Of a stretch of 64,000 nt of DNA, positions 22,121 to 24,864 are shown piece after piece (the stretch's first letter is position 1; each line of letters opens with the position of its first letter). The translations under genes were made by a program, and so were the position numbers. The notes beneath the pieces were generated by a model. That model was not told the origin of the DNA and did no database searches. It saw only the letters and a list, made by a program, of their open reading frames with translations. Origin of the DNA: Escherichia coli (GTDB lineage Bacteria > Pseudomonadota > Gammaproteobacteria > Enterobacterales > Enterobacteriaceae); the NCBI RefSeq assembly GCF_002854065.1, contig NZ_CP024147.1; one strand, given 5' to 3'.

Positions 22121-22292
22121 AACCCGGATTCTCTATAGTGACCCGCAGCCTGGAACTGCGTGTCTGTATTGCTCACAAATCAATTCCCGCCCTTATCGGA
22201 CAGGGAATGAAGTATTGCTGCCGGATGGCGCTGCACGCAGAGGCACAGCACCACCGGGTATGCAGATTGTTGACAAAGAGCGCTTTGTTTAT

Positions 22293-22391
22293 GCCGGATG
22301 CGGCGTTAACGCCTTATCCGGCCTACAAAATCGTGCAAACTCAATACATTGCAGAATTTTCGTAGGCCTGATAAGCGGAGCGCATCAGGCA
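22293..22391. repeat. Pair of inverted REP elements (BIME-like) in the dppA-dppB intergenic region
   Basis: gccggatgcggcgttaacgccttatccggcctac at 22293-22326 and its inverted partner gtaggcctgataagcggagcgcatcaggc at 22362-22391. Confidence 0.6.
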
Positions 22392-22427
22392 GTTTTGCCT
22401 TTGCCATCAGTCTTGTATGGCTTTTAA

Positions 22428-24035
22428 TTATTCGATAGAGACGTTTTCGAAGTGATGTTTGCCTAATGGATCAACCACATAGCCTTTAACTTCTTTGCGT
22501 ACCGGTTCAAACACGGTGGAGTGAGCGATGATCAGTGCCGGAGCCTGATCGTGCATCACCACCTGCGCTTGCTTGTACAGTTCAACGCGTTTGTTATGGT
22601 CGTCGGTAGCACGCGCCGGTTGAATCAGATCTTCAAACGGTTTGTAGCACCATTTTGAGTAGTTGGAGCCTTGTTCAGAGGCGGCGCAGCTGAACAGGGT
22701 GGCGAAGAAGTTATCCGGATCCCCGTTATCGCCAGTCCAGCCCATCATTACCGTCTGGTGCTCGCCATCTTTCGCACGCTTGAGGTACTCACCCCATTCG
22801 TAAGTGACAATTTTGGCCTGCACGCCCACTTTCGCCCAGTCTGCCTGAATCATCTCCGCCATGCGGCGAGCGTTCGGGTTATACGGACGTTGTACCGGCA
22901 TCGCCCACAGGTCGATGGAGAAACCTTTTTCCAGACCCGCTTCTTTCAGCAAGGCTTTCGCTTTTTCAGGATCGTAGGTGTAGTCCTGAACGTCGTCGTT
23001 ATAGCCCCACATGGTTGGCGGGATCAGGTTTTTCGCTGATACACCCGCGCCCTGATAAACCGCTTTGATGATCGCGTCTTTGTTCACCGCGTAGGTCAGA
23101 GCCTGGCGAACTTTCACGTCATCGAGTGGTTTTTTCTGCACGTTATACGAGAGATAACCGACGTTCAGCCCCGGCATTTCCATCAGGTTGATAGATTTAT
23201 CCTGCTTCATGCGGGCGATATCTGCCGGGTTCGGGTACGGCATCACCTGGCATTCATTTTTCTGCAATTTAGCGTAACGCACGGAAGCGTCAGGGGTAAT
23301 AGAGAAAACCAGCGTATCGATCTGCGGTTTGGTGCCCCAGTAGCCATCAAACGCTTTGTAGCGGATACGGGAATCTTTTTGATACTGCTGTAACTGGAAC
23401 GGACCGGTTCCGATTGGGTTGAGGTCCAGTTTTTCCGGTGTACCGGCTTTCATCATCGCATCAGCATATTCTTTTGACAGAATAGAGGCGAAGTCCATTG
23501 CCAGGTCAGCGAGGAACGGCGCTTCCGGGCGAGTCAGCACAAACTGAACGGTGTTGTCGTCCACCTTTTTCACTTCGCTGATCAGCTCCGGCAAGCCCAT
23601 GCCTTCGAAGTATTCGTAGCTGCCGCCAGAAACTTTATGGTACGGGTTTTGCGCGTTTTTCTGACGATCGAACGAGAACACCACGTCATCGGCATTCATT
23701 TCGCGCGTCGGTTTGAATTCTTTATTGTCGTGCCACTTCACACCTTTACGCAGATGGAAGGTATAGGTTTTACCGTCTTCGCTGACTTCCCACTTTTCAG
23801 CGAGGCCCGGGATCACTTCGGTGGTGCCGATTTTAAATTCAACCAGGCGGTTATAAAGCGGTACGGAAGAGGCGTCATAGGTGGTACCGGAGGTAAACAG
23901 CTGCGGGTTAAACCCTTCCGGAGATCCTTCTGAGCAATAAACCAGAGTTTTAGCCTGAACACTTGCTGCGACGGTCATAGCCACCAGGCTGAGACCAAGC
24001 TTCAGCATCCCTGACTTTTTCAAGGAAATACGCAT
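22428..24035 (-). CDS. dppA: Periplasmic dipeptide-binding protein DppA
   Basis: 535-aa ORF MRISLKKSGMLKLGLSLVAMTVAASVQA (signal peptide), SBP family 5 fold; first gene of dppABCDF. Confidence 0.95.
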   Translation of the reverse strand: MRISLKKSGMLKLGLSLVAMTVAASVQAKTLVYCSEGSPEGFNPQLFTSGTTYDASSVPLYNRLVEFKIGTTEVIPGLAEKWEVSEDGKTYTFHLRKGVKWHDNKEFKPTREMNADDVVFSFDRQKNAQNPYHKVSGGSYEYFEGMGLPELISEVKKVDDNTVQFVLTRPEAPFLADLAMDFASILSKEYADAMMKAGTPEKLDLNPIGTGPFQLQQYQKDSRIRYKAFDGYWGTKPQIDTLVFSITPDASVRYAKLQKNECQVMPYPNPADIARMKQDKSINLMEMPGLNVGYLSYNVQKKPLDDVKVRQALTYAVNKDAIIKAVYQGAGVSAKNLIPPTMWGYNDDVQDYTYDPEKAKALLKEAGLEKGFSIDLWAMPVQRPYNPNARRMAEMIQADWAKVGVQAKIVTYEWGEYLKRAKDGEHQTVMMGWTGDNGDPDNFFATLFSCAASEQGSNYSKWCYKPFEDLIQPARATDDHNKRVELYKQAQVVMHDQAPALIIAHSTVFEPVRKEVKGYVVDPLGKHHFENVSIE

Positions 24036-24045
24036 TATTCTGCTC

Positions 24046-24068
24046 CAATTGTGATGTTTGTTGTTTTA
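24046..24068 (-). promoter_or_regulatory. C/A-rich element in the dppA 5' leader next to the RBS (candidate GcvB sRNA pairing site)
   Basis: Minus-strand leader reads aacaacaaacatcacaattGGAGcagaataATG; the CA-rich tract just upstream of the SD is the kind of sequence GcvB targets. Confidence 0.35.
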
Positions 24069-24752
24069 ACCCTTTGCAGTGGGTTGTCGCTGCCTGACCT
24101 TTTTTGTTTTTTGCCCGGTCGGGTCAACGTTATGAGGTGGGGATGCCGTACTAATTAACATCAGTGTAACAGTGCGGATCCTCCATAAAATGCCCCTCGT
24201 GACCTACAATCTGTCAACAGAATGTGAAAACGTCAATACAGCCAACCGGGATTTACACCAACGGTGAGAATCCACAAACAAAGATTAAAAAAACTTCAAA
24301 CAGCTATTTGCAGCAGAGAAATTTGTGCTACTCCAACATGACCAGAACAATCAGCTTAATATTTAGCAACATTTGGTGATTAAGTTTTATGCATTTAATG
24401 AAAAAAATCTGAGGAAAAGGTGGATATCTGAGCGATTAATACCATGAACGCTAAAACGCACAGCGGAAAATGCCAGCGCCAGCCATAAGTAACGCAAAAA
24501 AAGATTTAAGCAAATATAAAAAAAGACAATGGTTTCTGTCACAAATCCGTTAATGGATAGTGAGATATGGGGCGCAAATTTGGCAGGGAAATGTGTGGTG
24601 TGCTGCCGTTTAGGTCGGATAAGACGGGTACGCTGCATCCGACAATGAGTGCGCTGCCGTTGCCTGATGCGACGCTGACGCGTCTTATCAGGCCTACGTC
24701 GAGTCGAACCTCCCTGCCCCCGGAGGTTCTCATCCTCTTCAGATCGCAGAAA

Positions 24753-24787: not shown

Positions 24788-24864
<77 letters not shown>

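What the first reader, a model, noticed from the sequence alone, without database searches (positions are those of the whole stretch)
24036..24068. C/A-rich element beside the dppA ribosome-binding site (candidate GcvB target)
The dppA leader reads AACAACAAACATCACAATTGGAGCAGAATAATG on the coding strand: a C/A-rich tract directly upstream of the SD, the class of sequence bound by the GcvB sRNA to repress amino-acid and peptide transporters. The long dppA leader (22.4-24.5 kb region upstream) and the REP pair downstream of dppA are classic post-transcriptional control features.
Basis: partly seen in the sequence, partly recalled or inferred. Interest (0 to 1): 0.25.

Follow-up and report, generated by a model that had tools for sequence, protein, structure and literature searches.

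The report
Known GcvB target site in dppA leader
The C/A-rich stretch just upstream of the E. coli dppA ribosome-binding site is the already well-studied place where the small RNA GcvB pairs to shut down translation of the dipeptide transporter, so the finding is correct but ordinary.

Summary
The window is E. coli chromosome. The ORF at 22428-24035 (-) is dppA. The quoted 33-mer is present, at 24065..24033 (-), 3 nt off the stated coordinates.

E. coli GcvB is predicted to pair through its G/U-rich R1 region (nt 57-82) with dppA -30..-7. The duplex has 24 bp (21 Watson-Crick, 3 G-U; -29 kcal/mol) and covers the GGAG Shine-Dalgarno. It is the best site in the leader and the best of 47 translation-initiation regions in the window.

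The tract is unpaired in the predicted leader fold. It lies inside the published 165-nt 5' UTR, and promoter plus UTR are identical to K-12. It is conserved next to the SD in about 90 Enterobacterales dppA leaders and absent from Burkholderiales and Rhodospirillales homologues.

Published work shows GcvB/Hfq-dependent repression of this K-12 leader. In Salmonella, the four ACA motifs act as a translation enhancer that GcvB masks.

Verdict: interpretation supported and already known. The REP pair downstream is real. A conserved, covarying hairpin with an A-rich loop (-94..-53) was noticed; it may be an Hfq landing site.

The parts
24042..24065 (-). C/A-rich element, the predicted GcvB R1 pairing site (dppA -30..-7). 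It overlaps the Shine-Dalgarno.
   Evidence: Duplex with GcvB nt 57-82: 24 bp (21 WC + 3 GU), two 1-nt bulges on the GcvB side, -29.2 kcal/mol. Unpaired in the MFE and centroid folds of the 5' UTR. Conserved across Enterobacterales.
24050..24064 (-). ACAACAAACATCACA: four ACA motifs in 15 nt (translation-enhancer module).
   Evidence: It matches the description in Yang et al. 2014 (PMC3879156): four ACA in a 15-nt segment of the Salmonella dppA target site, whose deletion lowers expression by 96%.
24043..24046 (-). Shine-Dalgarno GGAG (-11..-8).
   Evidence: Read from the sequence. The GGAG columns are invariant or nearly so in the 40-genus alignment.
24033..24035 (-). dppA start codon ATG.
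22428..24035 (-). dppA coding sequence (535 aa, periplasmic dipeptide-binding protein).
   Evidence: NCBIfam NF043070 equivalog, 1177 bits; RefSeq annotation of near-identical genomes.
24036..24200 (-). dppA 5' UTR (165 nt). The transcription start at 24200 is taken from the literature.
   Evidence: Urban & Vogel 2007 cloned fusions from the annotated start site, and the dppA insert begins at -165 (PMC1807950). The window is identical to K-12 over this span.
24208..24236 (-). Inferred dppA promoter: TTGACG (24236..24231), 17-nt spacer, CAGATT (24213..24208).
   Evidence: Read by eye. The spacing fits a start at 24200, and the hexamers are conserved in Salmonella. The consensus scan did not report it because the -10 hexamer matches only 3 of 6. 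This is an inference.
24088..24129 (-). Conserved hairpin (-94..-53). Its roughly 17-20-nt apical loop holds AAAAAACAAAAAA (24112..24100). Candidate Hfq distal-face site.
   Evidence: Present in the MFE fold. On 41 Enterobacterales leaders, 7 pairs all show compensatory changes, 85% of cells are paired against 69% when shuffled (0/500), and the covariation score is 0.50 against 0.21 (0/500) and 0.08-0.15 for slid partners. The Hfq role is inferred.
24068..24085 (-). Small hairpin AACCC-ACUGCAAA-GGGUU directly 5' of the C/A element.
   Evidence: MFE and centroid folds. Present in Escherichia, Citrobacter, Salmonella, Kluyvera, Kosakonia and others, but not order-wide.
22285..22392 (-). REP pair (BIME-like) in the dppA-dppB spacer.
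   Evidence: Rfam REP-derived families ES036 (52 bits, above gathering) and partial naRNA4 matches; inverted repeats I1 and I2; sequence reading.

Best explanation
The element is the GcvB target site and translation enhancer of the E. coli dppA mRNA.

dppA is transcribed from a promoter about 165 nt upstream of the AUG. In this 5' UTR, a single-stranded C/A-rich tract (-30..-12, four ACA motifs) sits directly against the GGAG Shine-Dalgarno and boosts translation initiation. When glycine or peptides are abundant, GcvA induces the Hfq-dependent small RNA GcvB. The G/U-rich R1 region of GcvB (about nt 57-82) forms a duplex of about 24 bp with dppA -30..-7. This masks both the enhancer and the SD, blocks 30S binding, and so lowers synthesis of the dipeptide-binding protein.

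Shown here: the sequence, its position, the predicted pairing and accessibility, conservation, and identity to the K-12 leader that was tested experimentally. Taken from the literature: GcvB/Hfq-dependent repression, the transcription start, and enhancer activity. Inferred: that 30S exclusion is the mechanism in this strain, and that this strain carries gcvB.
For: Pairing:
- All 12 best solutions for whole GcvB against -200..+60 fall on one site, GcvB 57-83 with dppA -31..-6 (hybrid -28.4, total -15.6 kcal/mol).
- Pair by pair there are 21 WC and 3 GU pairs covering the SD.
- It is the best of 47 initiation regions in the window (z about -3.3).
- The RNA used is GcvB by Rfam RF00022, 199 bits. 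gcvB is present in 5425 of 5426 complete E. coli genomes and at least 99% identical in 5389 records.

Accessibility: the tract is unpaired in the MFE and centroid folds.

Conservation:
- An ACACAACA-CAUCAC consensus abuts the SD in about 90 Enterobacterales leaders from about 50 genera while the flanks diverge. Mean duplex energy with R1 is -29.0 kcal/mol against -20.7 for Burkholderiales, Rhodospirillales and other outgroups.
- The 68 nt ending at the ATG are at least 99% identical in 5067 of 5422 E. coli records.
- Promoter and UTR are identical to K-12.

Literature:
- E. coli dppA::gfp from -165 is repressed 3.2-fold by GcvB, and 1.6-fold in a hfq deletion (PMC1807950).
- dppA is R1-dependent and verified in E. 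coli and Salmonella, with high RIL-seq, CLASH and MAPS counts (PMC9299463).
- Four ACA in 15 nt act as an enhancer, and their deletion lowers expression by 96% (PMC3879156).
- The footprint and the R1-deletion result are summarised in PMC4104026.
- TRIC-seq localises the GcvB-dppA contact (bioRxiv 10.1101/2025.09.11.675593).
Against: Energy statistics alone are only moderate.
- Against dinucleotide shuffles of the leader, z is -2.4 and 1 of 40 shuffles does as well.
- In a hybrid-only scan of the whole window the site ranks about 9th of 25,590 tiles.
- The longest perfect Watson-Crick run is only 10 nt.
- C/A-rich tracts and ACA clusters are not over-represented in the window.

gcvB itself lies outside the window, so its presence in this strain is inferred. 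Nothing experimental was done on this strain. The Sharma 2007 primary paper could not be read, so its footprint coordinates are known only second-hand.
Confidence: 0.95

Rival explanations
1. The tract is mainly a cis-acting translation enhancer (ACA motifs, possibly read by ribosomal protein S1 or the 30S subunit). Its conservation reflects the need for high DppA synthesis, and complementarity to GcvB is secondary. This overlaps with the best explanation rather than excluding it.
For: Four ACA in 15 nt. In Salmonella, deleting or randomising them lowers dppA-lacZ by 96% to more than 99%, independently of predicted structure (PMC3879156). The reviewing statement that GcvB 'masks CA-rich translation enhancers' of gltI and dppA (PMC9988348).
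Against: Enhancer function does not explain why the conserved consensus (CACAACAUCAC) is the near-exact complement of R1 over about 20 nt. It also does not explain why GcvB R1 is required for repression (PMC9299463, PMC4104026). dppA homologues in GcvB-less orders carry no such tract yet keep an SD.
Confidence: 0.35
2. The tract (AAC-AAC-AAA..., ARN-like triplets) is itself an Hfq distal-face binding site. Hfq alone, not GcvB pairing, occludes the ribosome-binding site.
For: Hfq CRAC finds ARN repeats at or next to SD sequences and mRNA seeds. The dppA 5' UTR binds Hfq about 10-fold more tightly than GcvB does, and competes with a distal-face binder (PMC4104026). The tract starts with three ARN triplets (read from the sequence).
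Against: Repression needs GcvB and its R1. A stronger A-rich candidate for Hfq lies upstream, in the loop of the conserved hairpin at -77..-65. A ternary Hfq-GcvB-dppA complex forms.
Confidence: 0.1
3. It is a chance C/A-rich tract with no regulatory role.
For: Tracts of this composition are about as frequent in the window as expected (4 against 2.4). G/U-rich R1 gives low hybrid energies with many unrelated sequences.
Against: Position-specific conservation across about 50 genera while the flanks diverge; near-invariance in more than 5000 E. coli genomes; published functional data on the identical sequence.
Confidence: 0.01

Closest known systems
GcvB R1 - dppA C/A-rich target site (Sharma et al. 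2007, Genes Dev 21:2804; Pulvermacher et al. 2008; Urban & Vogel 2007)
   Same: Same gene, same position next to the SD, same R1 partner. The sequence is identical to the K-12 leader used in published reporter assays and differs by 1 nt from the Salmonella site (AACAACAUACAUCACAAUUGGAG).
   Different: Nothing substantive. This is another E. coli isolate carrying the same allele.
ACA-motif translation enhancers silenced by GcvB (yifK and dppA; Yang, Figueroa-Bossi & Bossi 2014, PMC3879156)
   Same: Four ACA within 15 nt directly upstream of the SD, as described for Salmonella dppA.
   Different: Enhancer activity was measured in Salmonella, not on this E. coli allele. The E. coli tract has AAA where Salmonella has AUA between the second and third ACA.
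Other R1 targets with C/A-rich sites (oppA, gltI, argT, livJ, livK, tcyJ, sstT, cycA)
   Same: Amino-acid or peptide uptake genes, a C/A-rich single-stranded target, Hfq dependence, and translational repression.
   Different: In gltI the site lies far upstream of the SD (about -57 to -45, from my recollection of Sharma 2007). In dppA it abuts and includes the SD, so direct occlusion is sufficient.
Competitors for the same interaction: the SroC sponge, the prophage anti-sRNA AgvB, and Salmonella DapZ
   Same: AgvB carries a CACAACA mimic of this kind of target and relieves dppA repression (PMC4104026). SroC sponges GcvB (PMC4474525).
   Different: These are trans-acting RNAs encoded elsewhere. 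None was looked for in this window.

Membership tests
GcvB R1 target site (C/A-rich element at an ABC-transporter RBS) | C/A-rich, single-stranded stretch in or just upstream of the ribosome-binding site of an amino-acid or peptide transport gene | tested here: met
   18/19 C+A at 24067..24049, ending 1 nt (-12) before the GGAG at -11..-8. Unpaired in the MFE and centroid folds. The gene is dppA.
GcvB R1 target site (C/A-rich element at an ABC-transporter RBS) | Extended complementarity to the G/U-rich R1 region of GcvB | tested here: met
   GcvB 57-82 with dppA -30..-7, 24 bp, -29.2 kcal/mol hybrid and -15.6 with accessibility. Top site in the leader and top of 47 initiation regions. The shuffle z of only -2.4 and hybrid-only rank of 9th in the window show that energy alone is not decisive.
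GcvB R1 target site (C/A-rich element at an ABC-transporter RBS) | The site lies within the transcribed 5' UTR | tested here: met
   Not mapped here. The published E. coli fusion starts at the annotated start site, -165 (PMC1807950), and the window is identical to K-12 from -225 to +36. The element is at -30..-7.
GcvB R1 target site (C/A-rich element at an ABC-transporter RBS) | Conserved in lineages that carry GcvB and absent where GcvB is absent | tested here: met
   94 Enterobacterales leaders against 20 loci grouped as outgroups: ACA count 4.5 against 0.55, duplex energy -29.0 against -20.7 kcal/mol; alignment consensus ACACAACACACATCAC-ATTGGAG. Presence or absence of gcvB in those genomes was not checked; it is assumed from general knowledge.
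GcvB R1 target site (C/A-rich element at an ABC-transporter RBS) | GcvB- and Hfq-dependent post-transcriptional repression in vivo, and in-vitro footprint or toeprint | not testable with these tools
   Published for the identical K-12 leader (3.2-fold, 1.6-fold in a hfq deletion; PMC1807950) and listed as verified in E. coli and Salmonella (PMC9299463, Table 1). The footprint and R1-deletion result are summarised in PMC4104026.
GcvB R1 target site (C/A-rich element at an ABC-transporter RBS) | gcvB encoded in the same genome | not testable with these tools
   gcvB is not in this 64-kb window (the Rfam scan covered only 19-29 kb). It is present in 5425 of 5426 complete E. coli genomes.
ACA-motif translation enhancer | Several ACA trinucleotides clustered shortly upstream of the SD | tested here: met
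   Four ACA in ACAACAAACATCACA, 24064..24050.
ACA-motif translation enhancer | Expression drops when the ACA motifs are replaced, independently of structure | not testable with these tools
   Shown for Salmonella dppA-lacZ (PMC3879156).
REP/BIME element in an operon spacer | Paired, inversely oriented REP palindromes between dppA and dppB | tested here: met
   Rfam ES036 at 52.4 bits (gathering 37.6) and partial naRNA4 matches at 22287-22422; inverted repeats. An effect on mRNA stability was not tested.
Hfq distal-face (ARN)n site | Single-stranded A-R-N repeats near the sRNA pairing site, bound by Hfq | tested here: inconclusive
   AAAAAACAAAAAA sits in the loop of a covarying hairpin at -94..-53. 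Hfq binding to this loop was not tested. Tree et al. show only that the dppA 5' UTR as a whole binds Hfq tightly.

The most novel reading that the evidence does not exclude
The covarying hairpin at -94..-53 displays an A-rich loop of about 13-20 nt some 20-35 nt upstream of the C/A element. It may be a dedicated, structurally presented landing pad for the Hfq distal face, co-conserved with the GcvB site across Enterobacterales. On this reading the dppA leader is a two-part module, with Hfq docking on the loop and GcvB pairing at the enhancer and SD. Reduced-genome symbionts lack the C/A element; whether they keep the hairpin was not checked.
Probability: 0.2. Interest if true: 0.3.

Novelty: already known. 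Interest (0 to 1): 0.08.

Why it matters
GcvB control of dppA is a textbook case of a small RNA repressing a transporter by masking a C/A-rich enhancer next to the ribosome-binding site. It links peptide uptake to amino-acid status. Finding it here shows only that the first-stage reader can recognise a known regulatory site from raw sequence. The one modest addition is comparative. The target site, and an upstream hairpin with an A-rich loop, are conserved across about 50 enterobacterial genera. The target site is missing from dppA homologues of orders not known to have GcvB.

Tried and rejected
- RNA.duplexfold on full-length GcvB against 260 nt of leader gave a meaningless end-to-end 'duplex' of -94.5 kcal/mol. 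I replaced it with a windowed search that adds accessibility terms.
- A hybrid-only scan of the whole window with R1 showed that G/U-rich R1 gives equally low energies with several GC-rich coding segments, so raw hybrid energy was dropped as a criterion.
- The longest perfect Watson-Crick match at the dppA site is only 10 nt. The longest in the window (14 nt, GcvB 131-144) lies inside the yhjX coding region, about 0.09 such matches are expected by chance, and yhjX is not mentioned in PMC9299463. I treated it as probably chance.
- The consensus promoter scan did not report the published -165 promoter because its -10 hexamer CAGATT matches only 3 of 6. It did propose GTGACA-18-TATATT at 24542..24513, and I found no support for that giving a longer leader.
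- The Sharma et al. 2007 primary paper is not held (PMC2045133), and the supplements of PMC9299463 are not held. Exact footprint coordinates and RIL-seq tables could not be checked.
- I assumed the window was colinear with NZ_CM128593 in order to name distant genes. The offset is 1.6-2.9 kb beyond the lpf region, so those names rest on ORF size and translation only.
- PMC4299497 concerns the Halobacterium dpp operon and is irrelevant.

Full report
**Observation.** The window is Escherichia coli chromosome. A 1.26-kb query around the finding matches 5425 of 5426 complete E. coli genomes, and the features annotated under it are dppA, tRNA-Pro and eptB (annotation). The ORF at 22428..24035 (-) is 535 aa and scores 1177 bits against the NCBIfam DppA equivalog, whose cutoff is 1005. 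The quoted 33-mer occurs once, on the - strand, at 24065..24033. Relative to the A of the AUG (24035), the GGAG Shine-Dalgarno is at -11..-8. The C/A tract AAAACAACAAACAUCACAA runs from -32 to -14 and is 18/19 C+A. It contains four ACA within 15 nt.

**Is it more than chance?** Not by composition. The window holds four tracts of this C/A richness against 2.4 expected from block shuffles, and two clusters of 4xACA in 15 nt against 3.8 expected. The signal lies in position, complementarity and conservation.

**Pairing with GcvB.** gcvB is not in the window, so I used the MG1655 gene (NC_000913 2942696-2942901). Rfam confirms it as RF00022 at 199 bits. It is present in 5425 of 5426 E. coli genomes and at least 99% identical in 5389 records.
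- A windowed duplex search with accessibility terms, over all of GcvB against dppA -200..+60, put all 12 best solutions on one site: GcvB 57-83 with dppA -31..-6 (hybrid -28.4, total -15.6 kcal/mol).
- Pair by pair, this is 24 bp (21 Watson-Crick, 3 G-U) with two single-base bulges in GcvB. It spans -30..-7 and so includes the SD.
- Controls: z is -2.4 against 40 dinucleotide shuffles of the leader, and one shuffle did as well.
- It ranks about 9th of 25,590 tiles in a hybrid-only scan of both strands.
- It ranks first of 47 translation-initiation regions of long ORFs in the window, at -15.3 against -11.9 for the next, with mean -4.4 and sd 3.3.
- The prediction is therefore favourable and points at R1, but thermodynamics alone would not prove it.

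**Context in the transcript.** Promoter and 5' UTR are identical to K-12 MG1655 from -225 to +36. Urban & Vogel cloned their E. coli dppA::gfp fusion from the annotated transcription start, and the insert begins at -165, which is window position 24200. They found 3.2-fold repression by GcvB, falling to 1.6-fold without Hfq (PMC1807950). By eye, TTGACG-17-CAGATT sits correctly upstream of 24200 and is conserved in Salmonella. The consensus scanner missed it because the -10 hexamer is weak. In the predicted fold of the 195-nt leader, the C/A tract and the SD are unpaired.

**Conservation.** A degenerate pattern for the DppA peptide YCSEGSPEGFNPQ retrieved 120 loci from reference genomes.
- In 94 Enterobacterales leaders from about 50 genera, the region just upstream of the SD averages 4.5 ACA and 77% C+A. 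It pairs with R1 at a mean of -29.0 kcal/mol.
- In 20 loci that I grouped as outgroups (Burkholderiales, Rhodospirillales and similar), the values are 0.55 ACA, 57% and -20.7 kcal/mol. One of the 20 is really a mislabelled Kosakonia-like MAG.
- A 40-genus alignment gives the consensus ACACAACACACATCAC-ATTGGAGCAGA while the flanks diverge.
- The exceptions are reduced-genome symbionts, a Plesiomonas MAG and one probable paralogue.
- Within E. coli, the 68 nt ending at the ATG are at least 99% identical in 5067 of 5422 records. One variant has A-to-G at -26, which would still allow a G-U pair.

**Literature.**
- dppA is listed as an R1-dependent target verified in both E. coli and Salmonella, with high RIL-seq, CLASH and MAPS counts (PMC9299463).
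- The four ACA motifs of the Salmonella dppA target site are a translation enhancer. Deleting the 15-mer lowers expression by 96%, and randomising it can abolish expression (PMC3879156).
- The footprint and the R1-deletion evidence of Sharma 2007 are summarised by Tree et al. They also show tight Hfq binding to the dppA 5' UTR and de-repression by the prophage anti-sRNA AgvB (PMC4104026).
- TRIC-seq localises the GcvB-dppA contact.

**Mechanism.** GcvB R1, assisted by Hfq, pairs with -30..-7 of dppA mRNA. This masks both the ACA enhancer and the SD and so prevents 30S binding. The sequence, the pairing and the conservation are shown here. Repression, the transcription start and enhancer activity come from published work on identical or near-identical sequence. 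Exclusion of the 30S subunit in this strain is inferred.

The REP pair between dppA and dppB is real (22285-22330 and about 22358-22392). The 'long leader, 22.4-24.5 kb' is not. That span is mostly the coding sequence, the UTR is 165 nt, and the rest of the 750-bp spacer up to tRNA-Pro holds another REP-type element (naRNA4, 24613-24694).

**Extra.** A hairpin at -94..-53 (24129..24088) carries AAAAAACAAAAAA in its loop. Across 41 Enterobacterales leaders, its 7-bp stem covaries. 85% of cells are paired against 69% when shuffled, and the covariation score is 0.50 against 0.21 (0 of 500 shuffles reach either value). With slid partners the score is 0.08-0.15. It is a plausible Hfq distal-face site, but that role is untested.

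**Verdict.** The feature is already known, so interest is low.

Noticed in passing
window 24088-24129 (-), loop A-tract 24100-24112: Conserved, covarying hairpin in the dppA 5' UTR (-94..-53) with an A-rich (ARN-like) apical loop. Across 41 Enterobacterales leaders all 7 stem pairs show compensatory changes (covariation 0.50 against 0.21 when shuffled, 0/500). It may be an Hfq distal-face docking site next to the GcvB site.
   Followed up: partly
window 34902-34915 (-): A 14-nt perfect Watson-Crick complement (ACAGGAAGTGAAAA) to GcvB nt 131-144 (the R2 side). It lies about 600 nt inside the yhjX-like MFS transporter ORF (34285..35532). About 0.09 such matches are expected by chance per window, and yhjX is not mentioned as a GcvB target in PMC9299463.
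   Followed up: partly
window 60308-60318 (-): The second cluster of 4xACA in 15 nt in the window (ACACAACAACAGCGA). It includes an 11-nt perfect complement to GcvB R1 nt 76-86 and lies about 88 nt inside a 274-aa ORF (59582..60406; bax by size). Significance unknown.
   Followed up: no
window 24613-24694: A REP-derived element scoring above the Rfam gathering threshold for naRNA4/CssrE (64.8 bits), between tRNA-Pro (24788-24864) and the dppA promoter. Some RefSeq genomes annotate a 'hypothetical protein' nearby in the proK-dppA spacer (overlap with this element not checked).
   Followed up: no
window 24513-24542 (-): A promoter-like site, GTGACA-18-TATATT (10 of 12), about 470 nt upstream of the dppA AUG. 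If active it would give a much longer leader. I found no evidence for it.
   Followed up: no
L006, L045, L039, L094 (dppA leaders of the Pantoea symbiont 'Brub', Ca. Pantoea edessiphila, Arsenophonus nasoniae and a Plesiomonas MAG): These reduced-genome or outlying lineages keep dppA but have lost or degraded the C/A-rich element (0-2 ACA, R1 duplex energy -13 to -18 kcal/mol). Whether gcvB is also lost there was not checked.
   Followed up: no
L124:151-218 (E. coli Ec-2939) against window 24033-24100: A natural variant of the target site, A-to-G at -26 (AACAG instead of AACAA), which would turn an A-U pair with GcvB into G-U. There is a second change at -54 in the hairpin stem (GGCAACG against GGCAGCG).
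   Followed up: partly
window about 26.9-34 kb: An lpf (long polar fimbriae) operon lies between eptB and yhjX. It is absent from K-12, so this is a non-K-12 lineage. The window is not colinear with the best-matching genome NZ_CM128593 beyond this region (offset 1.6-2.9 kb).
   Followed up: no
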